This document shows, piece after piece, positions 17 to 64,000 of a DNA stretch of 64,000 bases. The stretch is from positions 124,001 through 188,000 of the forward strand of contig JAVKOQ020000063.1 of NCBI GenBank assembly GCA_031835245.2, in the 5' to 3' direction. The notes under the pieces are model-generated. The model had not been told where the DNA came from, did not search any database, and saw only the letters and a program-made list of their open reading frames with translations. Source of the DNA: Balamuthia mandrillaris. Lineage: Eukaryota. Position 1 is the stretch's first letter; every line of letters begins with the position of its first letter. A program made the translations under genes and the position numbers.

Positions 17-1175
17 TCAAAAGAAGGAGCACGGAGGCATGTGACGTGCTTGGCCGCTGCCCTGGTCCTCAAAGTCTGGTCCATCATCTTCTGCTGGAAC
101 AGGTCTAAAGCATTCATGGCCGAACCATGTGAGGGAGCGCAGAAAGACATAGCAGTCAAGCGCGGGACAGAAGCGGTACATGAGTCTTCCGCTGATGCCG
201 CTCTCACACCCATTGCTCATCGTAAACTGATGACAGTACGCTTTTTCTCCTTCCTCTATCTGCCTCTTTGTTGGCAGGGGTTCGGTTGGATCTACTCCTT
301 CTCCTTCTTCCCCACCAACAGCGCCAGGTTCTTCTTCACCCGAGTCGGTATAGTAGCCGTCATAAGGGCTATAGTAGATGTCGCAAGAGATGAGCTCATC
401 GTTGAAGAGACCAGAGGAGATGCTGCCGTTGCAGTGGTTGGTGAGGTTTGCAGAGAAGGAGGCCACATCATCGCTGCAGAGGATGGCCCATGAGGACCAT
501 TCAACAACGGAGGTGTGGGATGAGTCCCAGTAGTGGTCGTGGTCGTAGTCGTAGTCTCCACTGCCTGCCCATGGTGCAATTCTTCTTTCGTTGGAGACAG
601 TGACGCCTTCTCCTTCGTAACCTTCTGTTTTTTTTTTCGTAGTAACAATAAAGAAAGAATAAGAACTTCTGTTTTTTTTTTTTCGTAGAAGGGGAAAGGC
701 AACTGAGCGAAACAAGTGGAAGAGGCAAACCTTCAGCAACGCCAGATTCGGAGTAGTAAACGGTGCAGCTGCTTCCAAAGCTCTCTCCCTCTGTAAAGTA
801 AGCCACGAAGCACTCTGAGCCGTTGCGGTCGACTACGAAGAGAGCAAGCTGACCGCTGAAACCTCCCCTTATAAACCCGTGCTCAGGGGCCACAAATTCC
901 AAGCACTCCTCGTCCTCGCACTCGATCGCCTCTCCTTCGAGCCCATCCTCTGTGAGGCGGAAGGAGCCGTCGCAAAAGTAGCGAACAGAGAAAACGTCAA
1001 CAAAGTCGGAGAAAGCACAGGCCTCCGAGTCGCCGCCGCTGGATAAAAGGGTGTACTCGTGGACGACGTGGTCCAGTTGAGCGTTGGACAAAGGAGCCAG
1101 GCCCATGCAGAGCACCACCACCACAAAGAACCACATCAACAACAAAGCGGGGGAAGGACGTGGTGTTGTGGCCAT
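17..1175 (-). CDS. Secreted Cys/acidic-rich protein of unknown function (2 exons)
   Basis: ATG at 1175 followed by a signal-peptide-like stretch (LLMWFFVVVVLCMGLAPLSNA). A GT..AG intron at 730-625 joins the 224-aa and 253-aa ORF frames (…VAEEGYEG…). Stop TGA at 17-19. Confidence 0.7.
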
Positions 1176-6391: not shown

Positions 6392-9300
6392 TCCTTTCTC
6401 ATTCCTATTATTTTTTTGGCCATAATTTTTTTGTTATTTTCTTTTATTTTTTCCATTTTATTTATTTTTCTTTCTTTTCTATTTCTTTTTTTCTTTTTTT
6501 CTCTTTTTTCCATTTTATTTATTTTTCTTTCTTTTCTATTTCTCTTTTCTTTTTTTCTTTTTTTCTCTTTTTCTTTTTTCTATTCTCTTTTTCTTTTTTC
6601 ATTCCCGAAGACATTTTTGACCAAACTTTTTTTTGTATTGTTTTATTATATTTTTAAACAATAAAGATGAGCCATGGGATGCTTTGGAGCAAGTAAACCA
6701 ATGGATACTGAACGCGATAGACCGAAAGGCGGCCAAGATGAAGAAAAAAGGGACGTGGAGGGATCCTGAGGCGCTGCGAGCGGTCATGCTTGAGCTTTTG
6801 GCCAGTTCTTCTTCCTCATCGTCTTCCGTTTCTTCTTGTTCTTCTTCGTCTTCATCTTCTTGTTCTTCGGATGATGAGTTGGACAACGAAAACGAAAACG
6901 AAAACGGCAACGGAAATCCAGAGACAACGGCAACCAACGAAAGCGAACAAGAACAAAAACAAGAACCGGAAGAACAAGAACAAAAAGAACACAAGGATGA
7001 CGAAGATGCCGTGGCAAAGACCGTTGAAGAAACAAAGATAGAGGAACAAAAACAAGAAGAAGGATTGAAGGAAAGAACAGACCAACAAAGAAATTGCTCT
7101 GATTCTGCTGCTGTAGAGCAAAGAGAAAAAGAGTGTAATATTCTTCATCACCAAGACGCAGAACAAGATGAGGTTCAAAATAAAGGTAAAGAAGAAATGG
7201 AAGAACAAAGCAACTTTCAAGATGATGGTGATGGCGATAACGTTGAGGATCAGCAGCAACAACAGGAAAGCAACGCAGACGTAGTACACGAAGAAACGGA
7301 AGAGGAGAAACAACGCAATGCTGAGTTGAAGCAAATTCACAATTATTTATTGCAGATTTTCTTGCCTCGCATTTGCAAGAAGCTGCTTCGCAAACGGTTT
7401 GCTCCTATCAATGCTCTTCTGTTTCTCTTTTCCTTTCTCTTCTTCTCTGTTGCTTCTCTACCAACAAGCTTTGTTTTGTGCCGTGCAGATACTATCCTCC
7501 ATATGCCAAACTTCGGTTGAACCAAATGTTCCAATACGTGCTTCACGCCATTGCCTTGTATATTACTTCCACCAACACCAAAAGAAGGCTAGTGAAGTTG
7601 CTCAACTGGTTGTTTGATCCTGATCTCGCATTTTATCAGATTTACAGTACTCATCGCATTGGCGAGGTTTGCTATTTCTTTCTCTCTTCATCCTCTACTA
7701 TTCGCCTCATCTTTTGATAAATGACTTTTGTTTTCTGGACTCTAGAATTATTATGATAACTCATTGACCGACGTTTCTGGTTTTTTCACTACAGTCCGTC
7801 AACCCCTTCCCTTCTGCTATTTTCTTTTTTCATTTCAACTGACCTTCCTTCCCCATTGAAAATTTTTAAAGCCGAACGGCCAAGCATCACCCTATTTGTT
7901 GCAAAACATAAATGCGTTCGGAGAGGTTTGTGGATTTGAATACATTGTAGATAGGCTTCAGGATGAGCAAAACCCCATCTCGTTGGCAAGGCTAGTCAAA
8001 GTTCTTGGACCCTTTGCTAGGGTTCTCTCCTCTCGCTCTCCTCTCGCTCTCCTCTCGCTCTCCTCTCGCTCTCCTCTCGCTCTCCTCTCCTCTTTTACTT
8101 CTTATTGTTCTTGTTCTTCTACTGAGCTATCTCTTATACCATACACAAAAGATTCGCAAGTGCTTATTACCAATGTACGCGAAACCTTGGGTGAAACGTG
8201 TCTCTGCCACGATGTTCAAACGCATCCTCGAATTGCCAGATAACGAACTTAAAATCATTCCAAAGGAAGATCTTAACAAAACGTTGGAAGTACTGGACAA
8301 GTTGTGTAAACTTTGCACACAACAACAACTGCAACCACAACGCCTTCTCTCTCCTCTGGATGATATAGAATTGGATGATGATGATTACTATAATCCTCAA
8401 CAGCTTCAACACGGTCAACACCATAACGAAGCAGAAGAAGATGATCCAATGGCGTTTGCAGAAGTGGTAGAAAGATTCAAGCTCAACTTTGCTTACAAGT
8501 GTCTTCATTCTTCTTCGTTGGAGAGAAGATTGAATGGCTTGAACGCCATCAACAAGCTGATTATGATGGCCACCAGAAAAGATGCTGAAGATAAAACCTC
8601 TTCTTATTCTTCGGGTTATGCGGCCGCTGGGTATGGATACGCCGCCAGGAGAATGCAAAGACTTTCTTCATCTGCCAAATGGCTTACAAAGCAACGAATG
8701 GTTTGTCTTATGTCTTTTTTTTTTGTTTTTTTTTTTCTCTTCGTTTTCTTTCGTTCTGTTCAACAATTCAATTCTCCAGGCGAATTGGTTGGAAGGAAAA
8801 GGCATCGTGGAAGAGTTATTCGGCAAAAAGATGCACATCGAGCTCATCTCTCGGTCCAGGGATGTGTTGAGCCTCCTCGTCGAGAGCAACAAGTTTGGAG
8901 AGGACTATCTCGACCTTCTATGGAACGCAGCAGCTGGCACTGGCAAAGAAGAGAGAATGACAGAAACAGTATTTGAGCTGATCGATATGCTCGTTCTTCA
9001 TCTCGAGCCGGAACACTTGGATCACTTGTTGCTGCGAATCAAGGAGACACAGATTTATGACTCACATACGTTAGCTTTGTTGAACTCCATCACTTTGCAA
9101 CAATTATCGGATGATCCTGATGAGGTTAATGCTCTCTTCTTTTCACCCTTTCTTTGCTGTTACTTTCGTCGTTCTAGAGCGTTCAGAAGCTTTCAGCCTT
9201 CTCCTCCCTGACCGGTTCTTTTCTGTCTGAAAAATAGGAGAGAAAAACTAGAGGATTATTGTTATTCTGGGATGCCATCCAAGATGAGCACTTCATCTCC

Positions 9301-12300
9301 GAAGCCGTCTCCAAAGAGGCAACGACCTATCTGAAGAATATCATTCCTCGGTCCCGTTGCCAATTGTACAGAATGAGTTTTATGAATCTCTGTCTTGCCA
9401 ACCTTCAAAATCATTCCTCTGTTCCACAGTCACTCAAACTGTTGCTTTCAATTTTGGGTATTCCTCTCTTTAACTTTCATTATCTCTTTCGTCGTTTCTC
9501 TTTCTCTTTTCCTCTTGCTCTCTTTATGTCACTCGTTGTGCTCGATTCTTACTTTGATGATGTTTTCTTTTGCAATAGAAACGTTTTCTGATGACCCGCG
9601 AATCAATGAAAGAGCGGCAGTCATTATCGACATGGCCGAAGAGCAACACCTTATGGATCGCTTTTTCTCTGATCTACAAATGTACAAAGAAAAGGCCATT
9701 GAAAATGCTGCTCAACAATTCGAAGAACGAGAACGAGCTCAAGATTCAACTCATAATTCTTACTTGTACTTAGTTCCTTCTCTGTTCTCTCATTCTCCCT
9801 TATGCTTTTTGTCTTTCTTATTCCTCTTTTCGCTTCGCATTTAAAAACAAATACAGAGAAGAAGATGATTTGAAGCATGACATCAACAACTTGATCCTGG
9901 TTGGAGTTCAGCCTCACCTCAAACAAGTCGAAATCCGACTCAAGTTCCTCCGTTTCCTTCTGAGTCACTCTCCTCTCTACATCAGCTCCGCTCAACTGGA
10001 CCAACTTTGGGACAACCTTGTAGAACGCGCTCTGACTGAGAAGGAGAGAGACACCGCCTTTCTATGGTTCCAAAGCGTCTGCGGACATGGCTCGATCTTC
10101 TCGTATGATGCTCTTTCGCAGGCTATGAGCAACTTCTTTCTTGGCAAATGTTGTGGCGCGTACATGCGACAAAACTTTGCCACCATCACTCAGGCCGGCT
10201 TTGACTGCTTCGAGCAGTACTTTCGTTATCACAACATGGAACAACGCAAACTTTCTCCTCTGTCTTCGTCGAAAGACTTTGTGGTGAGTGATCTGTTTGG
10301 ATTGTATGGTCTGGATTGCCTTTGGCAGTTGGCGTTGAACGTGCGGGATGAGCGAGTGGCTCAGAGAGCGATTGACTCGCTCTATTCCCTCTACGATATT
10401 GATAAAGTACGGCTGTCTTCTCTATTTTATTTTATTCTCTCTCTTCTATTCTCATTCCTCTCTATTGCTTATATTTTGCTCATATTTCACAAAAAAGTTG
10501 TCACCCGAGTTGCAACAACAAATAGATACCATCCGGGGTAACTTTTTGGACACCATAATGTTGCATTTGGAGGAAGCTAGCAACAAGGATGGAACACAAA
10601 CCTCCACTGAAAATGCTCTCCGCATTCAACGCTGTCTTGAGCTGTTGAGGGTAAGGAGTAAAGCTCTTTTTTTTTTCTGAATGTAAACTCAATGTATTTC
10701 TTTGCAGAATTTCGTTCAAGAATATGAGAATCGTCAAGAGTTGTTGGCTTCTGCTTTAGGTTCATTCTCTTTAGTTTTTTTTTTCTGTGCTTTCATTTTC
10801 TTTTGTCTTTTTTTTCAATTTGAACTTATCGTGTATCAGAATTAGTTTCATCCTCCAATGCAGACCAACAAAACATAACGCTTCAGTTCTATTGGTTCCA
10901 TCAAGGAGTCAGCTTCGACATGAAGTTCACTCCCAAGGAAACGATGGGCGATGTTCGCAAGAAAGTGGCCCATAAGATCCAGAAAGATATTGATTTTTTC
11001 ACTTTGAGAACAGTCCCTTGGGATTACTTTGATGGGGACAATGATAACTTGACGCTGGGCACTGTTGGAATGGCTGATGGAACTACTGTTCATTTAAATT
11101 TGGTTTGTTTGTTTTTGCTTTTTTTGCTTTTCTCTCTCTCTCTTTTCATTTGGTGTTAATTTCTTTGCAAAGTTGGATGGAAGTGATAGTTTAGAGCTAT
11201 TAGAAGAGCACGAGGATACGGCCACCATTGCTGCTTTGCTTGGGTTGCCTGTATGTTATCTTTCTCCTTTTGTTTAAAAACAATCATGTTTTAAACTTCT
11301 CTTTTGACAACAAGCAGGAAGTGAAAAGTTCTTTTATTCCAAGCTACGCCCTTTCCAACAACCAAACCTTTTTCTACCTTCTTTTCAGCCTCCTTAGCCT
11401 TGATTCCAAGATTGCCGAAACGGTTCGTGATTGCTATGTTCTCATTCTATTACGCTTTGTTCTTCTTTCTAATATCTTTGTTATATGTCGTATACAAACA
11501 AACGAAAATAAAGGCGTGGGATCTTATTTGTATGCTTCCCACTAATGCGGCAATGGAGCGCAGCATTCGAACCTTCCACATCACTCCTCAAACCTTAACC
11601 TCTGCTACTTCTTCCTCGTCTTCCTTCCCCTCTGTAATAGCCACAAATGACGACGACGACCTTCTTCCAACGTCTCCTCCTCCTCCTTCACCTTCCGTTT
11701 CTTCTTCCTCCTCTTCTTCTGAAGAATCGTCTTCTTTGCTAGAGTCTCTCCCAGCTCCTATTCCTGACGAAGAAGAGAAACCTGATTGGACTCGTTTGGT
11801 GGATACTCGTTCGACCTTTAGTTTGCTTTACTCTCTTCGTATCATCAAAGGAGTTTTGGGTTTGGACAATTCGACCACCTCTCTTTCTCCTTCTGCTTCT
11901 TCTACCAACAACGCTTCACCTTCATCTGCTCCGTATGTTTCATCTACCATTGAAGAGGAAGAAGAAGCCCGATCCAATTGGGCCGCCGCGTTCATTGAGA
12001 ATGGAGGTCTTGCCCATATCATAGATGCCTTAGTCCATCATGAACGTTTTCAGGGCAGCCTTGCTAAGAGCTGTCTTCTCGCTGTAACTGAAATTATCGA
12101 CTTTATTCTCAGTACGTTTAACTCTTCTGTCTTGCTTTTTGAGGCTAACCCCTTCTTTAAAAAAACAGAGAATGATGTTTTGTCATCGCGGAGAGAAGCG
12201 CTAAGAAAAGTGGTGGACTATTCATCGTTAGTCAAAGGACTTGCAACAGTAGTTTGGCGATCGGCTCGAGACGTTACTTCTCTTTCTTCTTCCTCTGCTT

Positions 12301-12563
12301 CGTCCTCCTCTTCAACCGTAGCAACTATCAACATGGACGTCGCTTTAGTGAAGAACGCGATGAAGATTTTAACAGGAGTTGTTAGTCATCAAATCGGTGG
12401 ATTTGCTGTGGTAAACAGCGATAAACTCAAAAAGCCAAACTTGCTGAAAACATTGTTCCGACTGGAAGGCTTTGAGGAGTTTATTTATTTTGTGGTGTTG
12501 AAATGCTCTGAAGCGGCTATTCGAGAAGAGATGATTGAAGCTCTGGATAGCTTTTATACGTTC

Positions 12564-12606
<43 letters not shown>

Positions 12607-15600
12607 CTCTTTTTTCCTCTTTTGCGTTTTTCTTATTTATTTTTTGAATAACAACAGGATTGGGGGCAAGCGACAGCGACGCTGGTTGCTCGTTTTGATG
12701 TTTACATTTTTGCCAAAGATAGAACCCACTTCTCAAACCTGCAACGAGTACTTTAGTCTCATGTCTGAATTGCTGCGTCATCACAAAGAAGAACCAATAA
12801 CAGAGTGCGAAGCAAAAGAGGAAGAGGAGGAAGAAGCAGAAGCATTCAACAATAACGAACAAACAGCAAAAAAGAAGCAAACGACACTGAACGATCATCA
12901 AGCAGAAGAAAAGCACAAAGAGAAAGAGGAAGAAGAGAAGCGTTTACGCGAAACCCTTTTCACTCTTTCAGATTCCGAGCTGCTGCAAAGTTTCGCTCAG
13001 GCTCTGTTGCTTCTCATCAAGTATCATCCAATCTTGGAGGCTTCGGAGCACGATCCTCCCGACCTCGTCTTGATTGGTCTTTTACATCTCACTGCTGACC
13101 TTTCATGCTTGCTCTCTCCTTCCCTTCGTCAGAGCATCGGTTCCTCTTCTTCAACACACGAAGGTGTTACCTCTGTTGGAAGTGTTGGTTTGATCGAGGA
13201 GATAATTGTTGAATGCCTCTTCAAGATTCCATCTCCACACATCACCGGTTCATCTGATGAACCTACTTTGACTTCGACTTCAACCCTTCCTCCTCCTAAA
13301 TGCAAAACGAAAAACAGTCGAATCGCCGCTTTTCATCTTTTGGAGGAACTTTGCAAAGACTGTCCTAAAAACCAATTGTCGCTGGTCCATTTCATCGCAG
13401 AGACGCACTTAAAGACTTATCAACAACTTCAAAAACAGTCCTCTTCGCCTGTTTCTTCCTCAGCTTCTTCTTCGATATCTCATGATATGGATCTTTCCTG
13501 TAATGCTTCTGGAGAACTTGCTTCCTACAAAAACGAAAACAAGAATGCCGAAGAAAAAGCAGAAGGAAAACGAAGCTTCCTGCATATTTCAGAATGGGGC
13601 TTTTCGCCAACGGCTGGAGAACGTTCAAGCACAGGTTATGTTGGACTCAAGAACTTGGGTTGTATATGTTACATGAACTCGCTCATGCAGCAACTGTTCA
13701 TGATGCCCAACTTTCGTTCTGGTATCCTGTCTGTTAGTGGCACTGAAGGTTTGGTTCTATTCTTTTGTTATCAGCTTTCCCTCCGCGTTTCCTTTTTGCC
13801 TTTTACTCCTTTCTCTCTACTCTCTCTCTCTCTCTCTCTCTCTCATTAATGAAAATGCAACAAAAATATAGAAATGATGAAAAAACGAGAAGAAAGACAA
13901 TTGATCAACGCTAGCAAAGAAAAAAACAAGAAGAACAAGAAGGACAAAGAGAACGACATTGACGAGTTCTCGGAGAAAGAAGAAGAACCAAGCGAGGAAG
14001 AACTGCTGTTAGAGCTCCAAGAAATGTTTGCCTACCTCCAAGAAAGCATCAAGCAGTATTACTCTCCGAAACGGTTTTGCATGGTCTACAAAGATTATGA
14101 TGGACGTCCCATAGATGTAAGCGTTCAAATGGATGCTGATGAGTTCTTCAATATGCTTTGCGATAAGCTGGACAACCACTTAAAAGGCTCTCATCAGGTA
14201 ACATTTTTGTTATTGTTTTTTTTTAAATGGTTGTTGTTGACTAACTCGTTTTATAACGAAAAGGAAAAACTGTTGCATAATATTTGGTGTGGTAAAATGA
14301 CTTCGCAGTTGATTTGCAAAGGGTGCCCTCATCGCAGCGAAAGAGACGAGCCATTCTACACCATAAGTCTCGATATCAAAGGAAAGAAAGACATTTTGGA
14401 AGCGCTGCAGCTTTATGTTCGTGGAGATATGTTGGAAGGGGACAACGCTTACTTTTGCGAGCTCTGTGGAAAGCACGTTGATACACTGAAGCGCTCCTGC
14501 ATCAAAGTATCCTTCTTTTTGCGATATATTCCTTTTGCTTTTCTCTAACTTATTGTTTTTCTAATACGGCCGAAATAGACCCTACCCAATACACTCATTC
14601 TCCATCTCAAACGGTTCGAGTTCGATTTTGACACCATGGTCAAAATGAAGCTGAACCAACACTGCGAGTTTCCTTTCAAGTTGAACATGCTGCCGTACAC
14701 CAGGGAAGGATTAGCTGCAGCCGAAGAAGAGGAAGAACAAAAAAGGAGGACAAGACAACAGCAACAACAAAAGAAAATAGGAAAGAGAGAAGATGGAGAT
14801 GACGAGGATGATGACTCTTGCGTCTCTGTGGCAAGCAATAACAGCAGCGAAGCAGAGAGTAACAACAGCAGTAACAACAACGACGACAAGGACGGGGAGA
14901 GCTCTTCTTCATTGCCGCCACTCACTCATGAATTACCTCCTCTGCGCCCTCATGAATATTACGAATATGAACTAGTTGGCATCCTTGTGCATCGAGGCGT
15001 TGCTGACAGTGGCCATTATTATTCCTTCATAAAGGTATATCTTATTCTCGCTTCTTCTTTATTTTTATTGTTTTCATTTTGAATAACGAACAGCATTACT
15101 TCAAACAACAGGAACGAACTGGAGATTCTACAGCAAGATGGCTTGAGTTCAACGACAGAACGGTGCGGCCATTTGACATCAACCGATTGGAAGAGGAATG
15201 CTTTGGTGGGTACGAGGTAATCCCTCAATACGATGAGTTTACAAAGGTGCGTGTACAAAGACAAGTAGAGAACTCGAGAAGCGCCTATATGCTCTTTTAT
15301 GAGAGAATAGTACCTCAAGCTGTTAGTAGCGATGAGGAAGAGATGGTGGATAAAGCGGTTAGCAAACAAGAAGAATCTATTCAAGTTCATGTTCCGGCTG
15401 CGGGTTCTCCTCGTTCCACACCATCGAACGCTGTTCTTGTGCAACCTGACCTCTCGATTTCCAAAGGTTGATATTCTTTTCTTGTTGTTTTTATTTCATT
15501 TCTTTTTGTTGCTTGTTGCTCATTTTCGATTAAGGTTTACTGGCAGGAGTGTCGTTAGCTTCGCGACTATTTTCTGAAAGTGGCGGTTCGTCATCCACAG

Positions 15601-17764
15601 CTTCGTCACGCTGTGAAAGCAGCGGACAAAAGCGAAGTTTAGTTCCAGTTCCCCCGTTCCTATATAACGCTATTTGGCATCAAAATGTACAGTTCCTGCA
15701 ACAGAAGCGAATGTTTGAGGATTGTTACTTCCAGTTTGTATCCAACCTCATTCAACCTTGCACTCAATTGCATTTTGGTACAATCGCCTCTTCTCTCCCG
15801 TCTCTTCATTCTTGTCTCCTCTTCCACGCTTTCTCCTTTTTTTGTCGCTTCTCTTCTCTTCTCGTTCTCTTTGTTAACTTAAACCCTTTGTGCAATAGAC
15901 TATCATGAAAGGATGGACATCTCCACTCAGAAAGCAGTCGAAATGGGTTTCTTCTTCTTCCTCGAAATCATCTCTCACTCTCGCGAAAAAGACCGCATCA
16001 ACCACTTCTCCGAACAACTACGAAAGATACTTAAGGCGAATGTAGCAGCTTGTCGTTGGTGGGTTGGTCTCTTGGTGGATAAACCAGAATGGCTTAGAGA
16101 GATGTTGTTGGACTGCTCGTCGGAGGATGCTCGTCAAAACTTTGCAGAGCTCATTCATTATGCGCTCAAATATCTGTTGAAAGCAGGAGAGAGAGACTAT
16201 CTTCAGGTATTCCTGGCAGAAGGTGAAGAACGAGAAGAAGCAGGAGGAGAGACGATGCTTAAAGAAGGACAGATTGTGCGGCTGTGCATTGATAGAGTGT
16301 TGGAGTTAGACCGTTATGCAGTATTGAAGTGGCGCAACTTTGGTCAATACTTTACTCTCTTCTTCCACTTTGCATTGTTGGGCCCAACGGAGGTAATGCT
16401 TTTTTTTGTTGTCTTTCTTTTGATTGTTTCTTCTCACTAACTGTGTCTTTGTTCAACATATTAGATGGCGTATCTTCTCCGTCGCAATGTTATCTCCCGT
16501 TTCCTTGACATTTATTTAGGTCCTGACTCACCTAATGCTCGCGTACGTTCTCTGTTTTCACCCCTTTCTCTGCTTCGCTCATTCTCTTGCTTGTTCCCTC
16601 TCTTTGCTTCCTTCTCCCTTCCCTCTTGTCTCTTCTCTCTTCTTTCTACACTATTTTTCTAATGTTATCAAACAGAGACGACTTTACATGCGGTTTGGGG
16701 ATAAGTGGCAACAACCCGATTTCTCTTCTCTCATTTCTCTGGTTTGTCTTCTTCTTCGCTCCTGCCACATTGAACGAGATCAACACGAAGAAGTACGACA
16801 AATTTGCGATGCCGACGACGACACAACAGAAGAAGTCGTTCATTCTTCTCCTGTTTCTTCTCTTCGCGATTCTGGTGAAGCGGTATTTCCTTCTGACGAT
16901 GATGATGATGACGAAATTGACATCAAAGGAGGAGAGTTAATACCGCCAACTTCTCCTCAAACTGCTTCGTTTGTATACAACGCCAAACCACAGCAAGAAC
17001 AACTGGAGAAAGAAAAAGAGAAAGAAAAAGAGAACGAAACCGAAACCAAAGAAGATGAGCAATTACCTCAGCAACAACATAACGAACCCGAAGAAGAGAC
17101 AGAACGCAGAATTATCATTCTATCACGACCGTCTCCAACACAAGCAGAAGGCCCTCTCTTCACGCTCTCCGAGCAAGACAGCGAGATGGTGTTCAACGAG
17201 GCGTTCCTCTTGCGTCTCGTGAGCGATCCTCAAGCGATTTCAGACGCCTCTTTGCTTCTCTCTCATTTGTGTTGGGAGAATTTGAGCCTGAGTGACCTCA
17301 GCTTGCACGTTCTAATCATGGCAATCCAGAAGGCAAATTACGAGGGCCTTTCGGCGCTCCACAAAATCTTGCTGACGGTTCTCAACCTCGAAGACTTTTA
17401 TGCTGAACTGAGGGTACGAACCATTTTGCCTCGTCTCTTGGACTTATTCGAGGACAAGAAGAAGTTCCCCAAGAGCACCGAGATCAACCTTCGCTTCCTC
17501 ATTCACAAGCTCTACGAACGCAACGCCGTGGCTCAGCGCTACATGGACGACTTGGCGGCTGGAAGAAGAACGGCGGTGGCAGAGGAAGACGAAGAAGATC
17601 ACCATCAGCAACAACCAAGAAGTTTGGAGTGGATCACCGCCTGGCTGTCCAAGCACACGCACAACATAAACGTGCCGGGATGGATACGGCATGCTCCTGA
17701 TTATGACCCCAGCATGGAAATCAGTCTTAGCGGCTATGGCAAGCATTACTCTTGGTACTCTTAA
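6220..17764 (+). CDS. Large ubiquitin-specific protease, USP9X/USP24/USP34 (Fat facets-like) family, many exons
   Basis: Cys box GYVGLKNLGCICYMNSLMQQLF (~13635), QMDADEFF, finger CxxC pairs, His box YELVGILVHRGVADSGHYYSFIK (~14970), WLEFND and SAYMLFYER. Long helical N-terminus (SSSLERRLNGL) and a ubiquitin-like insert (~10920). Confidence 0.92.
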
Positions 17765-33061: not shown

Positions 33062-35167
33062 TCAGAAGAAGAGAGCACGAAGTGCAGCAGCAGAGGAGGT
33101 GTCTCCGGTGTTGTATTGGATGTCGCCACCGTCGCCGTAGGCCTCGCCGTCATAGGCAACATCACCGCCACCGTAGGTCACAACGTCCTCGCCGTCGTAC
33201 ATGACGTCGCCGCCATCATAGGTCACAACGTCCTCACCGTCATAAGTGACGTCTCCGCCATCATAGGTCACAACGTCCTCGCCATCGTACATGACGTCCC
33301 CGCCGTCGTAGGTCACAACGTCTTCGCCATCGTAGGCAATGTCACCGCCATCGTAGGTCACATCTCCTCCGTCGTACATGACGTCTCCGCCATCATAGGT
33401 CACAACATCCTCGCCATCGTAGGCAATGTCACCTCCATCGTAGGTCACATCCCCTCCGTCGTACATGACATCACCGCCGTCGTAAGTGACAACATCTTCG
33501 CCATCATAAGTGACGTCTCCGCCATCATAGGTCACAACGTCCTCGCCATCGTAGGCAATGTCACCTCCATCGTAGGTCACATCCCCTCCGTCGTACATGA
33601 CATCACCGCCGTCGTAAGTGACAACATCTTCGCCATCATAAGTGACGTCGCCACCATCATAGGTCACAACATCCTCTCCGTCGTAGGAGATATCGCCGCC
33701 ATCGTAGGTCACAACGTCACCGCCATCGTACATGACGTCTCCACCGTCGTAGGTCACAACGTCTTCACCGTCATAAGTGACGTCTCCGCCATCATAGGTC
33801 ACAACGTCCTCTCCGTCATAAGCAATGTCACCGCCATCGTAGACAACGTCGCCGCCATCGTAAGAAACGTCGCCACCGTCGTAGGTCACAACGTCCTCGC
33901 CGTCATACATGACGTCTCCGCCATCGTAGGTCACAACGTCTTCTCCGTCGTAGGAGATATCGCCGCCATCATAGGTCACAACGTCCTCGCCATCGTACAT
34001 GACGTCTCCGCCGTCGTAGGTCACAACGTCCTCGCCATCGTAGGCAATGTCACCGCCATCGTAGGTCACATCTCCTCCGTCGTACATGACGTCTCCGCCG
34101 TCGTAAGTCACAACGTCTTCGCCATCATAAGTGACGTCGCCGCCATCATAGGTCACAACGTCCTCTCCATCGTAGGCAATATCACCGCCATCGTAGGTCA
34201 CATCTCCTCCGTCGTACATGACATCACCGCCGTCATAAGTTACGTCGCCACCGTCGTAAGAAACGTCGCCACCGTCGTAGGTCACAACGTCCTCGCCGTC
34301 ATAAGTGACGTCGCCACCATCGTAGGTCACAACGTCCTCGCCATCGTAAGAGATATCACCGCCGTCGTAAGTCACAACGTCACCGCCATCATAGGAAACG
34401 TCGCCGCCATCATAGGTCACAACGTCCTCTCCGTCATACATAACATCTCCGCCATCATAGGTCACAACATCCTCTCCATCGTAAGTGATGTCGCCGCCAT
34501 CGTAGGTCACAACGTCCTCGCCGTCGTAGGAGATATCGCCACCGTCATAGGTCACGACGTCCTCGCCATCGTAGGCAATGTCACCTCCATCATAGGTCAC
34601 AACGTCTTCTCCGTCATACATGACGTCCCCGCCGTCGTAGGTCACAACGTCCTCGCCATCGTAGGAGATGTCGCCGCCATCGTAGGTCACGTCTCCTCCG
34701 TCATACATGACGTCTCCGCCGTCGTAGGTCACAACGTCTTCGCCATCGTAGGAGATGTCGCCACCGTCATAGGTCACAACGTCTTCTCCGTCATACATGA
34801 CGTCCCCGCCGTCGTAAGTCACAACGTCCTCGCCATCGTAGGAGATATCGCCTCCATCGTAGGTCACGTCTCCTCCGTCATACATGACGTCGCCACCGTC
34901 GTAGGTCACAACGTCTTCGCCGTAGGTAACATCACCCCCGTCGTAGGTCACAACGTCCTCGCCGTAGGTAACATCACCCCCGTCGTAAGTCACAACGTCT
35001 TCGCCGTCATACATGACGTCTCCGCCATCGTAAGTCACATCCTCGCCGTCGTAGGTCACGTCACCGGCGCCGTACTGCACGTCCATGCCCCGCTTGTTGC
35101 GAAGGGGCCTGGCGAGAGCGGCAGTAGCCAGCAAGGCCATGATGACCAAAGTCAAAAGTAACTTCAT
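33062..35167 (-). CDS. Intronless secreted acidic Tyr/Asp/Gly tandem-repeat protein
   Basis: 701-aa ORF: signal peptide MKLLLTLVIMALLATAALA, RPLRNKR, then roughly 90 units of YDGGD[VI]x / YDGEDVVT with synonymous variation. Confidence 0.92.
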   Translation of the reverse strand: MKLLLTLVIMALLATAALARPLRNKRGMDVQYGAGDVTYDGEDVTYDGGDVMYDGEDVVTYDGGDVTYGEDVVTYDGGDVTYGEDVVTYDGGDVMYDGGDVTYDGGDISYDGEDVVTYDGGDVMYDGEDVVTYDGGDISYDGEDVVTYDGGDVMYDGGDVTYDGGDISYDGEDVVTYDGGDVMYDGEDVVTYDGGDIAYDGEDVVTYDGGDISYDGEDVVTYDGGDITYDGEDVVTYDGGDVMYDGEDVVTYDGGDVSYDGGDVVTYDGGDISYDGEDVVTYDGGDVTYDGEDVVTYDGGDVSYDGGDVTYDGGDVMYDGGDVTYDGGDIAYDGEDVVTYDGGDVTYDGEDVVTYDGGDVMYDGGDVTYDGGDIAYDGEDVVTYDGGDVMYDGEDVVTYDGGDISYDGEDVVTYDGGDVMYDGEDVVTYDGGDVSYDGGDVVYDGGDIAYDGEDVVTYDGGDVTYDGEDVVTYDGGDVMYDGGDVVTYDGGDISYDGEDVVTYDGGDVTYDGEDVVTYDGGDVMYDGGDVTYDGGDIAYDGEDVVTYDGGDVTYDGEDVVTYDGGDVMYDGGDVTYDGGDIAYDGEDVVTYDGGDVMYDGGDVTYDGGDIAYDGEDVVTYDGGDVMYDGEDVVTYDGGDVTYDGEDVVTYDGGDVMYDGEDVVTYGGGDVAYDGEAYGDGGDIQYNTGDTSSAAALRALFF

Positions 35168-35281
35168 TTGCTAAGAAGCGAACCGAGCGCTGTTCCTCTT
35201 GTGGTTTGTTTGTTGGTTTGTTTGTTTGTGAAGAGGATGATGAGATGAGGAAAAGCATGAAGGGGCACCAGCGGGGGCATG

Positions 35282-55711: not shown

Positions 55712-56118
55712 CTCCCCTCTCTCTCTCTCCTTTCTTTCTTTTTCCTTCGCCTATTTTCATTGCATCTTTATCCAAATTTAATCTCCGCTGGCTGTCGAAT
55801 ATATCGAATAGATTATCGGGTCCACTATTTCTTGTCGATGTGGATATGCAGTGGAGACCAACGAACATTCCGAATTTTTCGATAACAGAGACAATTTATT
55901 GGGAAAGTGATTATTTTAATGCCCGAATTCAATTATCAATTGTTTTCTTTATTTTTGTCGACGCTGAGATGAAGTGGAGCAAAACGATTATTTCGACTTT
56001 GTCGATAATAATCCGTAATTGTTGCCCTGCGCAAACCAACCATTCGTAAGTTAACTTATTCGTAACTTAACTTTCTGCTTCTTTCTACTTCTTTGTGTTG
56101 GCAAAGAATTTAGGTGAA

Positions 56119-56973
56119 ATGGAAGCAAGCAGAGGCAAGCAGGCCTACAGCGGGGCAGGCATCCTGCCCTTTGCCTTCAAAGACGGCGAGGCATGGTTCC
56201 TCCTCCACAAGAAGCGTGCGGGCAAGAAGGTGGGCTACCTTGTCGACTTTGGAGGCGCGCACGACAAGGAAGGAGACGCAGCCCTCTTGCATGCTTATGC
56301 GTCCTCCTTCACCAGCAAGGCCTCCTCCTCTCTCTTGTTGGAGGAAAGTTTATGCACCGCCGTGCGAGAGTTTTGCGAAGAGACGGCTGGACTGCTTGGA
56401 CCCCAACACCGAGAAGAAGGAGAAGGAGAAGCTGCAACAGCCGTTCGAGTTACCACCAACGAAGAAGCACAAAAGGGAGAACGAACGCAAAGAGCTATAG
56501 CGGCGATGCTGCACGAATTCTCCACAAATCGTCACCACATCCTTGTCGACAATAATTATGCTCCTGACATTCAGCACAACATCTCCTCGTTTTCTGCTGT
56601 GCCACACACAGTCGACACAAATTTTCCTTCAGCTCTTCAACACAATTACTCCTCCAATTGTCCTCAGCCAACCGATGTCGACACGAATTCTTCCCCCAGC
56701 AACGCTGCGCTGGAGACAGCGAAGAAGCTGTGGCGAATGGAAGGAATGCAGAGGGGATACGTGCTTTACGTGACGGAAATAGAACCTTTCGTCGAAGCGG
56801 AGGAGTTGAACAAAAGGTTTGGCGAGTGCTGTGTGGATAGACAGTGCGAGTTTTTGTGGGTGCCGTTGCGGGACCTGTTGGACAACAAGACGGAGCAACC
56901 TTTGTTCCCTCGCGTGGCGTTTTATGAAAAGAAGTTGAAGCAAGTATTGCTGGAGATATACGAGCTGCAATAG
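56119..56973 (+). CDS. Intronless Nudix hydrolase
   Basis: GAGILPF…WFLL…DFGG…TAVREFCEET Nudix box with an inserted loop; C-terminal CEFLWVPL. Confidence 0.82.
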   Translation: MEASRGKQAYSGAGILPFAFKDGEAWFLLHKKRAGKKVGYLVDFGGAHDKEGDAALLHAYASSFTSKASSSLLLEESLCTAVREFCEETAGLLGPQHREEGEGEAATAVRVTTNEEAQKGERTQRAIAAMLHEFSTNRHHILVDNNYAPDIQHNISSFSAVPHTVDTNFPSALQHNYSSNCPQPTDVDTNSSPSNAALETAKKLWRMEGMQRGYVLYVTEIEPFVEAEELNKRFGECCVDRQCEFLWVPLRDLLDNKTEQPLFPRVAFYEKKLKQVLLEIYELQ

Positions 56974-62363: not shown

Positions 62364-62718
62364 CTCATCTTCTTGTTTGTACAGTTGGTCAAAGAGAAGT
62401 GTTCCATTGGCAAAGTTTTAGAGTTTGCTTTGTTACTGCTTAGCAGACATTTATTGCCTTCAGACAATGTTTGTACTCTCTTTCTTCTATCTTCTTTTTT
62501 TGTGTTTTTTATAATAATGAAAAACCGCGACAGAGAGAGAGAGAATTCACGCTTTACTTTAGTTTTCTAACAAAAACGAAACAAAGGTTTTGGAAGTATT
62601 GGACATCCAATTGGGAGAAGGGGAATGGAACGTTGTCGAGAAGTTAACTCGTCTCCACCAACAACACACCAACAGCAACAACAATGGTGATGCTGATGAT
62701 AGCAGCAACACTGATTAA
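58941..62718 (+). CDS. F-box + galactose-binding-like domain + clathrin heavy-chain linker-like region
   Basis: F-box LPYDACLHVFAYL…ARLVCSLWKSIA; ASSTD…SI…TL…FWSSKG…LYGRVQ as in plant At4g00755-type F-box proteins; spliced C-terminus LRSTET…LNRHES…KLTCTEELGD…VY…V.DK. Confidence 0.8.
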
Positions 62719-62744
62719 ACACGAACCCGTAATAAATAGATTGC

Positions 62745-62956
62745 TGGCCAGCTTTCCGCTTCAATAAACGGACCGGAGGAAGAAGAACAAGCACTTAAGG
62801 CCAACTTTCCGAAGCCAGCTCAGGGCGAAGGCTTCCTTTTCCCCTCTCACCGAGGGGAGGAGGAGGCTCTAGTTTGTGGGCTTTGTCATACGTTGGGCGA
62901 CCTTTTCTTTATTCACAGAGAGTAAAGGTTGCCTGATCTCGCTTTCGCATCTCTCT

Positions 62957-63009
<53 letters not shown>

Positions 63010-63276
63010 TCTTTGGGAGCTTTGTCTCCTGTGGATGTGCTTGTGTGCGCTCATGTGTCACTCCTCCTTTTTTTTTTTTTTTGGAGGAGGAGGACGACGA
63101 GGCCACATGCTCTCCTTTCGTTCAGCATGCTGCAGGATGCGGAAGGGGTATTTTATTTTTGTTTTTTTTTTTTTGCAAGCACTAATGAAGAAGCACTCTA
63201 CGGTACCATAATCACCAGCGGGCGTGCCGAAGGAAGGGGTTAAAAAAAGGGGAAGAAAAAGAGATGGAAGGAGGAG
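62745..63276 (+). ncRNA. Putative structured non-coding RNA upstream of the tRNA-like element
   Basis: No credible ORF; nested and long-range helices containing G-U pairs on the plus strand (e.g. 62831-62867, 62896-62933, 63037-44/63175-82, 62942-54/63260-71). Confidence 0.5.
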
Positions 63277-63534
63277 GACCCTTTGGTGTAAAGCTTGGCA
63301 TCACGCCCGTCTCCGAGGCGCCGTTCTTTTCTTTAAAAAAAAAACCAAAAAAAAAAATTAAAAAAAAGGAGGAGGCGCCACACGGAAACCGAACAGCTCG
63401 GTGCTCGCCTTCTCTTCTCTCCTCTCCTCTCCTCTCCTCGCGGGGAGGAGGAAGGGAGGAAGGAAGGAGGCGATGTATGCTTTTCGTTTCGGCAAACTTT
63501 GGGGGAGGTCCCAGTTCGACTCTGGGAAGGGTCA
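63277..63534 (+). tRNA. tRNA-Arg(CCG)-like gene interrupted by a ~180-nt structured insert
   Basis: Acceptor GACCCTT/AAGGGTC+A (7 bp); U8; D-arm GTG…GG…CAC; loop CT-CCG-AG; T-arm CCCAG-TTCGACT-CTGGG; TTTT at 63539-63542. Confidence 0.7.
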
Positions 63535-63840
63535 ATCATTTTGGTTCTTCTTAAAAGACTGCTATATATTCTTTATTGTGGTGACATGGTGTGTGCATGC
63601 AGCACCCACCTCAGCAAACCAAAAAGATTCCTTCGTCTTCTCCGCCGATGCTATAACGATTTGATTTTTTGTGGTGAGCACGTGCCTCCGATCATGATCG
63701 AAAAATATCAAACCTCCAATGGAAAATCATATGTTTGTCGACATTTTTCCATTTTTAGGTTCCAATTAATTTTAAAAAAAGAAAGAAAGGCAAAAGAAAA
63801 CCGAACAACAAAACCGAAACGACGACAGTGAAAAACAAAG

Positions 63841-64000
63841 ATGAAGAGGAGGCTTGTGGTGGGGGTTGTGCTGGTTGCAGCGCTGACGCTGCTATATTTC
63901 TTTATGTGGACGCCCACGGCCTCCAGAACCGTCATCGTGATGAAGGGCGCCGTCACCACGATACACTGGCAGCCCCTTCGGCGCGACTGCCAAGGGGAGA
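63841..64000 (+). CDS. 5' end of a probable type II membrane protein (runs off the window)
   Basis: MKRRLVVGVVLVAALTLLYFFMWTP…: basic N-terminus plus signal anchor, open to the window edge, GTCGAC ~100 nt upstream. Confidence 0.65.
   Translation, partial: MKRRLVVGVVLVAALTLLYFFMWTPTASRTVIVMKGAVTTIHWQPLRRDCQGE

What the first reader, a model, noticed from the sequence alone, without database searches (positions are those of the whole stretch)
63277..63542. tRNA-Arg(CCG)-like gene split by a large structured insert at a non-canonical position
Seen: a perfect 7-bp acceptor stem (63277-83/63527-33) with A discriminator, a perfect T-arm (63510-63526), a D-arm/A-box and a canonical-looking loop CT-CCG-AG. 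The two halves are ~180 nt apart. Deleting 63321-63502 restores a full cloverleaf (stem CCCGT/GCG|GG, variable loop GAGGT), so the insert sits in the 3' strand of the anticodon stem (~41/42). Splicing at the canonical 37/38 site would leave a mismatched stem. The insert pairs back on the anticodon (CCGAGGCG 63313-20 with CGTTTCGG 63485-92) and carries its own hairpins (63321-63372, 63388-63402, 63405-63473). Known: eukaryotic tRNA introns are normally short and at 37/38; ectopic introns are known mainly from archaea and a few algae. Inference: this is either an ectopically spliced tRNA or an unspliced tRNA-mimic RNA carrying a cargo domain in place of the anticodon arm.
Basis: partly seen in the sequence, partly recalled or inferred. 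Interest (0 to 1): 0.9.

Follow-up and report, generated by a model that had tools for sequence, protein, structure and literature searches.

The report
tRNA-shaped gene carrying folded insert
In a single-celled eukaryote (probably an amoeba), a transfer-RNA-shaped gene has a 182-base folded insert inside its anticodon arm and shares its back half with several other gene copies; it likely makes an uncut, non-decoding tRNA look-alike rather than a working arginine tRNA, though splicing at an unusual site is not excluded.

Summary
The tRNA body is real: 7-bp acceptor, T-arm, A/B boxes. ARAGORN calls it once long introns are allowed. Removing 63321-63502 (position 41/42) restores a 76-nt cloverleaf. 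Canonical 37/38 splicing gives a broken stem and no anticodon-intron pair. New evidence: (1) the 3' half is multicopy in this species, with different upstream sequence per copy; sharing starts at 63497-63503. (2) Both halves look more conserved than the flanks in diverged isolates (each p about 0.04-0.06). (3) All 6 RNA reads crossing the 5' junction run into the insert, one from exactly base 1; no joint was listed, but depth is tiny. (4) A helix-bulge-helix motif fits the 41/42 junctions, yet costs about 13 kcal/mol, and the 5' site is buried. (5) One isolate carries an allele lacking the 5' half. Best reading (0.45): an unspliced Pol III tRNA-scaffold RNA from a small family with variable anticodon domains. 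Rivals: decaying pseudogene 0.25, ectopic intron 0.2, canonical intron 0.1. No genome was held and the insert core was masked, so the paralogs are seen only as fragments.

The parts
63277..63283 (+). acceptor stem, 5' strand (positions 1-7)
   Evidence: pair probabilities 0.93-1.0 for 6 of 7 pairs, 0.36 for the seventh; one X16 RNA read begins at 63277
63284..63304 (+). U8, D-arm and A-box; oversized D-loop; 1-nt deletion at 63295 in reads of other isolates
   Evidence: cloverleaf; deletion in 4 of 4 X15 reads and in 1 X16 read
63305..63320 (+). G26, anticodon-stem 5' strand CCCGT, relic loop CT-CCG-AG, and GCG (would be 39-41)
   Evidence: no other letters listed in the 4 X15 reads
63321..63502 (+). 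182-nt insert at tRNA position 41/42
   Evidence: of the single deletions tested, only those at 40/41-41/42 give a fully paired stem with a 5-nt variable loop
63317..63379 (+). arm 1: GGCGCC/GGCGCC helix around an A-rich stretch; 8-bp direct repeat GAGGCGCC at 63315-22 and 63372-79 (target-duplication-like)
   Evidence: pair probability 0.97-1.0; repeat
63383..63494 (+). arm 2: long hairpin with a CU-rich/GA-rich distal stem (63405-63473)
   Evidence: -58.1 kcal/mol; 0 of 2266 other 112-nt folds of the window are as stable
63497..63509 (+). 3' junction: CTTT (possible H helix with 63315-18), GGG bulge, then positions 42-48; sharing among paralogs begins at 63497-63503
63510..63526 (+). T-arm and B-box
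   Evidence: pair probability 0.98-0.99; multicopy in X4 and X10
63527..63534 (+). acceptor stem 3' strand and discriminator A73
63535..63542 (+). 3' trailer and T4 run; the X10 ortholog has 13 extra nt with T8 here; next T6 at 63665-70
63268..63375 (.). 10-bp direct repeat (63268-77, 63366-75) bounding a 98-nt deletion allele in run X4 that removes the 5' half
   Evidence: contig 11; arithmetic

Best explanation
This is a tRNA-derived gene, one of several copies sharing the same T-arm and acceptor end, that is likely transcribed by RNA polymerase III into an unspliced RNA of about 258 nt, in which the acceptor, D and T arms would act as a scaffold and the anticodon arm is replaced by a folded cargo, so it probably does not decode. 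Steps. Shown: tRNA body, insert at 41/42, structured insert, multicopy 3' half with differing upstream sequence, a few reads running from the 5' half into the insert. Inferred from established tRNA biology: A/B boxes recruit TFIIIC, transcription ends at a T run of 5 or more (internal T4 runs read through), and RNase P and RNase Z trim the ends because they read the acceptor and T arm. Inferred from folding: the GGCGCC helix buries the 5' junction, so the splicing endonuclease would not cut and the CCG triplet stays paired. Speculative: the cargo hairpin has a job, for example as a protein-binding arm or small-RNA precursor.
For: 3' half multicopy: X10 unitigs at depth 140, 80, 61, 57, 45, 31 and 27 against 32 for the orthologous flank. 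At least four different sequences precede the shared part across X4 and X10, diverging at 63497, 63499, 63501 and 63503, so would-be positions 38-41 differ between copies. Read by eye, one paralog type shows a D-arm-like end followed by a short hairpin with no U33 loop (loose end). CGG is the rarest Arg codon, 13 of 229 in seven long ORFs, a poor fit to four or more CCG decoders. 6 of 6 reads crossing 63320/21 continue into the insert up to the mask at 63325; one starts at 63277; no joint listed. 5' junction bases unpaired with p <=0.001. Arm 2 is the most stable 112-nt fold of 2266. Halves conserved against flanks: X10 ortholog 0 listed changes in 63505-38 against 14 substitutions and 8 indels in 244 nt (p about 0.04-0.06); X15 1 indel in 54 nt (p about 0.04).
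Against: RNA evidence is 8 reads in two 1.9-Gb samples and 0 in a third. The two 3' reads have the opposite mate orientation, so DNA carry-over or an unstranded library cannot be excluded. Standard RNA-seq under-samples mature tRNA (recalled), so the absence of spliced reads means little, and end-trimmed unspliced precursors are normal intermediates. 63326-63473 was masked in both lays, so conservation and covariation of the cargo are untested. Paralog 5' halves were not seen; the lay also missed the X10 ortholog's own 5' half, so this blank is uninformative. The 41/42 deletion restores a clean stem and matches an hBH motif. X4 carries a null allele. An equally strong CU/GA hairpin lies 330 nt upstream, outside any tRNA. 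Plus/minus fold asymmetry of arm 2 (8 kcal/mol) is not above background (mean 12).
Confidence: 0.45

Rival explanations
1. Decaying tRNA pseudogene or tRNA-derived repeat copy. An ancestral tRNA(CCG) gene took neutral insertions (an A-rich piece with an 8-bp duplication, then a fold-back low-complexity expansion), and the halves look conserved only through leftover promoter function or gene conversion among copies.
For: 98-nt deletion allele in X4; D-loop indel between isolates; terminator only T4 here against T8+T4 in X10; 8-bp direct repeat around the A-rich piece; a similar strong hairpin nearby outside the gene, z -5.08; very few RNA reads.
Against: Acceptor and T stems are perfect and unchanged in isolates whose flanks differ at about 9% of sites; the reads in 63020-63800 fall only on the tRNA halves (flanks partly masked or diverged); arm 2 is the best fold in the window.
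Confidence: 0.25
2. Working tRNA-Arg(CCG) with an ectopic 182-nt intron at 41/42, cut by a relaxed splicing endonuclease at a helix-bulge-helix motif (h 63309-14/63504-09, bulge 63501-03, H 63315-18/63497-500).
For: Of 720 junction pairs, 10 have a full H plus a flanking helix. 63320|63503 has the longest flanking helix (6 bp) and is the only one of the 10 that also restores a paired anticodon stem. The product folds its stem at p 0.85. Sharing among paralogs and two RNA reads starts at 63503; one X10 unitig matches from 63497, the start of H.
Against: A full H arises by chance in 2-9% of replaced inserts. The motif costs about 13 kcal/mol, has no second flanking helix, and the 5' site is double-stranded. 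The product collapses to a 3-nt loop through C32-G38. By eye, the paralogs' upstream ends fit the H partner at only 3, 3 and 1 of 4 positions. 0 of 6 junction-crossing reads are spliced. C. merolae ectopic introns are 11-69 nt and none is listed in the anticodon stem (PMC3728597).
Confidence: 0.2
3. Ordinary tRNA-Arg(CCG) with an unusually long canonical intron (37/38, 181-183 nt) and a weak mature anticodon stem.
For: ARAGORN calls exactly this (intron 63317-63497). One X10 unitig matches from 63497 and one X4 paralog from 63499, close to that exon start. The prior for 37/38 in eukaryotes is high (PMC4090602).
Against: The stem has three Watson-Crick pairs plus G.U and U.U with a 6-nt variable loop, or a G.G mismatch; stem pair probability 0.0 in both products folded; C32 has no G partner at intron -3 in 3 of 3 placements; the length exceeds the 6-133 nt range cited in PMC4090602.
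Confidence: 0.1

Closest known systems
Engineered tRNA scaffold (PMC3753655, passages read)
   Same: Acceptor, T and D arms kept; anticodon stem-loop turned into an insertion site for a folded RNA; ends handled by tRNA processing.
   Different: That is a laboratory construct in E. coli. This is a natural nuclear multicopy gene, and its end processing and any cargo function are inferred.
Ectopic BHB introns of Cyanidioschyzon merolae, nucleomorphs and archaea (PMC3728597, first of 6 parts read; PMC4090602, passages)
   Same: Insert outside 37/38 whose removal restores a cloverleaf; an hBH geometry can be drawn at the junctions.
   Different: 182 nt against 11-69 nt in C. merolae; 41/42 is not among the sites named in the passages read; motif not populated in the fold; intact A/B boxes; no spliced read seen.
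Canonical eukaryotic 37/38 tRNA introns cut by TSEN (PMC10485636, passages)
   Same: Long structured intervening sequence 3' of an anticodon-like triplet in a Pol III gene.
   Different: No anticodon-intron pair, broken mature stem, length above the cited 6-133 nt.
tmRNA and other tRNA mimics (recalled)
   Same: tRNA-like acceptor/T domain with a large domain in place of the anticodon arm.
   Different: No G3.U70, D-stem present, no tmRNA call by ARAGORN, Rfam tmRNA match only 17 nt at 6.2 bits; eukaryotic nuclear gene.
Lak phage tRNAs with enigmatic introns (PMC6784885, passages)
   Same: tRNA genes with unexplained inserts, one offset from the predicted site.
   Different: Those are phage genes whose inserts are typically identical across cohorts; here the sequence next to the shared 3' half differs between copies.

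Membership tests
Canonical 37/38 intron-containing tRNA | Removal at 37/38 restores a paired 5-bp anticodon stem and normal variable loop | tested here: not met
Canonical 37/38 intron-containing tRNA | Anticodon-intron pair (position 32 with intron -3) | tested here: not met
   C32 faces A, A or C in 3 of 3 placements
Canonical 37/38 intron-containing tRNA | Spliced product exists | tested here: inconclusive
   no joint listed, 8 reads in all
Ectopic BHB-intron tRNA | Removal restores a full cloverleaf | tested here: met
   76 nt, stem p 0.85, though the loop collapses
Ectopic BHB-intron tRNA | BHB, hBH or HBh' motif at both junctions | tested here: inconclusive
   hBH geometry fits (6 bp + 4 bp), chance 2-9%, costs 13 kcal/mol, 5' site paired
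Ectopic BHB-intron tRNA | Spliced product exists | tested here: inconclusive
   0 of 6 junction-crossing reads spliced; library unsuited
Ectopic BHB-intron tRNA | Host endonuclease of relaxed specificity; other ectopic introns in the genome | not testable with these tools
   no genome held
Functional tRNA-Arg(CCG) | Intact acceptor stem, T-arm, U8, A14, G18G19 | tested here: met
Functional tRNA-Arg(CCG) | Open 7-nt anticodon loop | tested here: not met
   CCG paired in the full-length fold; 3-nt loop in the 41/42 product; unmodified-RNA folding only
Functional tRNA-Arg(CCG) | CCA addition and arginylation | not testable with these tools
   no read showed it; no suitable library
tmRNA | G3.U70 alanine identity and tag reading frame | tested here: not met
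   C3-G70 in the sequence; no ARAGORN tmRNA call, Rfam below threshold
tRNA-derived SINE | Many dispersed copies | tested here: inconclusive
   about 4 or more copies of the 3' half only; no second copy in the window
tRNA-derived SINE | Intact tRNA head followed by body and A-rich tail, with flanking target duplication | tested here: not met
   the cargo lies inside the tRNA and the gene ends in a T run; repeats found in 63255-63545 are internal; farther flanks not searched
Non-decoding tRNA-scaffold RNA (working label) | Stable end-matured RNA that keeps the insert | tested here: inconclusive
   one read from base 1 into the insert, five more crossing reads
Non-decoding tRNA-scaffold RNA (working label) | Cargo structure conserved by covariation | not testable with these tools
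   63326-63473 masked in both lays; no homolog in public contigs

The most novel reading that the evidence does not exclude
This protist has a family of natural tRNA scaffolds: Pol III genes that keep the acceptor, D and T arms for promoter function, end maturation and stability, while each copy carries a different folded cargo in place of the anticodon arm, here a long hairpin that could feed a small-RNA pathway or bind a protein. Nature would be using the design that laboratories engineered for RNA expression.
Probability: 0.25. Interest if true: 0.85.

Novelty: new variant of a known kind. Interest (0 to 1): 0.55.

Why it matters
Either leading functional reading would be new for this kind of organism. 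One is a natural nuclear tRNA-scaffold RNA family. The other is an intron in the 3' strand of the anticodon stem, which would mean a ruler-independent splicing endonuclease outside red algae, nucleomorphs and archaea. Default ARAGORN and Rfam miss the gene entirely, so such genes may be hidden in annotated protist genomes. The question can be settled from the assembly and existing reads. If it is a decaying pseudogene, it matters little.

Tried and rejected
No whole genome is held, so a second tRNA-Arg(CCG) gene and full paralogs could not be sought. Rfam: 0 matches at gathering score; 45 weak matches, mostly generic miRNA hairpins; nothing for 62650-63270. Homolog scans: metagenome contigs 0 and 0; GTDB genomes 1 bacterial match, not examined further; viral contigs 1 match, 15 matches with only the T-arm motif, 13 of them ordinary phage tRNAs, and 0 for the 5' half. 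The soil run X14 laid nothing and X17 laid nothing; neither is a test. The run search listed no RNA holder. Two-insert model (37/38 plus 42/43, using CACGG at 63381-85): it gives a Watson-Crick stem on paper, but a 4-mer is expected by chance, the product's stem probability is 0.01, and by hand neither junction has an H helix; rejected. Spliceosomal GT-AG removal leaves no anticodon arm (by hand); rejected. Strand asymmetry of folding is not above background. Protein searches did not name the organism. PMC5372738 passages held nothing relevant. Earlier findings: none by sequence or in this genome.

Full report
Setting. The window is an intron-rich eukaryotic sequence of 45% G+C with many simple repeats. 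No genome is held and no call names the organism. From style and G+C I guess a free-living amoeba such as Balamuthia (recall; PMC10471605 passages give 46.4-46.8% G+C and 427-560 annotated tRNA genes for that species); nothing below depends on the guess. The element lies on the + strand between an apparent upstream gene end near 62718 and an ATG at 63841 (read from the sequence).

Observation. Default ARAGORN and Rfam find nothing in the window. With long introns allowed, ARAGORN calls one gene, tRNA-Arg(CCG) 63277-63534 with a 181-nt intron at 37/38; 40 locally shuffled windows gave 1 call, an intronless one. It is the only T-arm-plus-paired-acceptor arrangement on either strand, and the 258 nt fold with z = -4.76 (0 of 200 shuffles). 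Its picture of the fold is not: the anticodon-insert pairing has probability <=0.0006 and the 63388-402 hairpin about 0.02. The favoured fold is a three-way junction of 63310-16/63499-505, a GGCGCC helix 63317-22/63374-79 at p about 1, and a long arm 63385-63492. That arm is more stable than all 2266 other 112-nt folds sampled from the window; the whole 182-nt insert is beaten by 9 of 347 windows, the five best all of higher G+C.

Splice models. I enumerated 720 single-deletion junction pairs. Canonical 37/38 removal gives CCCGT against TTGGG (6-nt variable loop), TGGGG or GGGGG. C32 has no G partner at intron -3 in 3 of 3 placements, and the stem does not form in the two products folded (p 0.0). 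Removal of 63321-63502 gives a 76-nt cloverleaf whose stem forms at p 0.85, but C32-G38 and U33-A37 close the loop to 3 nt. In its favour, an hBH motif fits these exact junctions: helix 63309-14/63504-09 (6 bp), bulge 63501-03, H 63315-18/63497-500. Of the 10 junction pairs with a full H and a flanking helix, it is the only one that also restores the stem. Against it, a full H arises in 9.5% of random genomic inserts and 2.2% of shuffled inserts, the motif costs about 13 kcal/mol, there is no second flanking helix, and the 5' junction bases are unpaired with p <=0.001. Eukaryotic TSEN uses a ruler and the anticodon-intron pair, though the Xenopus enzyme can cut a BHB outside tRNA (PMC10485636 passages).

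Other isolates. Runs of the same species were laid twice; the tool masked 63326-63473 as repeats both times, so the core of the insert was never compared. In X10 the orthologous contig has no listed change in 63505-38 against 14 listed substitutions and 8 indels in the next 244 nt (p about 0.04-0.06), and it carries 13 extra nt with a T8 run behind 63538. This suggests termination needs more than four T, so the internal T4 runs at 63327 and 63481 would be read through. In X15 reads the 5' part 63272-63325 differs by one D-loop deletion while the upstream flank no longer fits (p about 0.04 at the X10 flank rate). Each test is modest. In X4, contig 11 joins 63277 to a position that works out as 63376, a 98-nt deletion between two 10-bp direct repeats, beside an intact contig: an allele or subpopulation without the 5' half.

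A family. The 3' half is multicopy. X10 unitigs on 63497-63541 have depths 140, 80, 61, 57, 45, 31 and 27 against 32 for the single-copy flank (12 of 17 laid records were shown; the summed depth of 1198 overcounts overlapping unitigs, so I estimate about 4 or more copies). X4 has one further copy. The sequence before the shared part differs between copies, with matches starting at 63497, 63499, 63501 and 63503. So would-be positions 38-41 are not shared, which fits either an insertion at 41/42 in all copies or an anticodon domain free to vary. By eye, the 30 letters shown for one paralog type resemble the end of this D-arm (8 of 11 letters) followed by a 5-bp hairpin with no U33 loop, which no single deletion turns into a normal arm; if that resemblance is chance, those letters are simply another insert. 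Paralog 5' halves were not seen, but the lay also missed the X10 ortholog's 5' half. CGG is the rarest arginine codon, 13 of 229 in seven long ORFs that include some intron sequence.

RNA. In 1.9 Gb each (3-5% of the runs), X15 gave 6 reads, X16 2 and X17 0, all on the two tRNA halves. From bin depths, all 6 reads that cross 63320/21 continue into the insert up to the mask, one X16 read starts at 63277, and two X15 reads cover about 63503-63538 only. The four X15 5' reads come from two starts and extend about 28 nt upstream of base 1. No joint was listed (the threshold is 3 reads). The 3' reads have the opposite mate orientation, so strand and RNA origin are uncertain, and mature tRNA is poorly sampled by such libraries (recalled). 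This is weak support for an insert-containing transcript and no test of splicing.

Mechanism and rivals. Most likely (0.45) the gene descends from a tRNA with a CCG anticodon. It is likely transcribed by Pol III from its A and B boxes, trimmed by RNase P and Z, and left unspliced, giving a non-decoding tRNA-shaped RNA with a folded cargo. The tRNA body, insert, family and crossing reads are shown; transcription route, trimming and lack of splicing are inferred; any cargo function is speculation (microRNAs in Amoebozoa are the subject of 10.1101/2023.10.19.562841, of which I saw the listing and abstract start). Rivals: decaying pseudogene or repeat copy (0.25), ectopic 41/42 intron (0.2), canonical long intron (0.1).

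Comparison with what is known. It works most like the engineered tRNA scaffold (PMC3753655 passages) and, loosely, tmRNA, but it is not tmRNA (C3-G70, no tag call). It fails the canonical-intron tests. It meets one ectopic-intron test and is inconclusive on two. Eukaryotic canonical introns are given as 6-133 nt, and insertions elsewhere in one of many gene copies are usually taken as pseudogenes (PMC4090602 passages). C. merolae ectopic introns are 11-69 nt, in the D arm, variable arm and T arm (PMC3728597, first of 6 parts). Six paper searches (listings and abstract starts only; open-access library only) showed no description of such a gene in amoebae. Genome annotation supplements were not opened and may list this locus as a tRNA or pseudogene. 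Two earlier AI notes on viral tRNA-shaped genes with replaced anticodon arms are analogies and were not tested.

Verdict. A real and odd tRNA-derived gene in a small family, with two interesting readings and one dull one still open. New variant of a known kind, interest 0.55.

Noticed in passing
window 62815-62945 (+): Two-hairpin fold about 330 nt upstream of the tRNA-like gene, z -5.08 on + against -2.08 on -, with a CU-rich/GA-rich stem like arm 2; no Rfam match. Possibly a 3' UTR element of the upstream gene or a separate RNA.
   Followed up: partly
window 63278-63375: 98-nt deletion allele in run X4 between two 10-bp direct repeats, beside an intact allele.
   Followed up: partly
window 63538-63542: Terminator polymorphism: T4 here, 13 extra nt with T8 in run X10; in this isolate the transcript may run on to T6 at 63665.
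   Followed up: no
window 33062-35170 (-): Open frame of 702 codons: hydrophobic N-terminus and a basic cleavage-like site followed by dozens of short Tyr-Asp-Gly repeats; looks like a secreted repeat or wall protein.
   Followed up: no
window about 8000-17764 (+): Large multi-exon ubiquitin carboxyl-terminal hydrolase gene (Pfam UCH; one relative named USP9/24).
   Followed up: partly
window 56071-56973 (+): Single-exon ORF with only distant relatives, one named NUDIX/MutT; no Pfam match.
   Followed up: partly
L013 501-521 (-) and L015 501-521 (+): Phage tRNA-like sequences with T-arm and CCA end that ARAGORN does not call, near called tRNA genes.
   Followed up: no
L001 about 400-490 (-): An uncalled tRNA-like gene within a phage tRNA cluster.
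   Followed up: no
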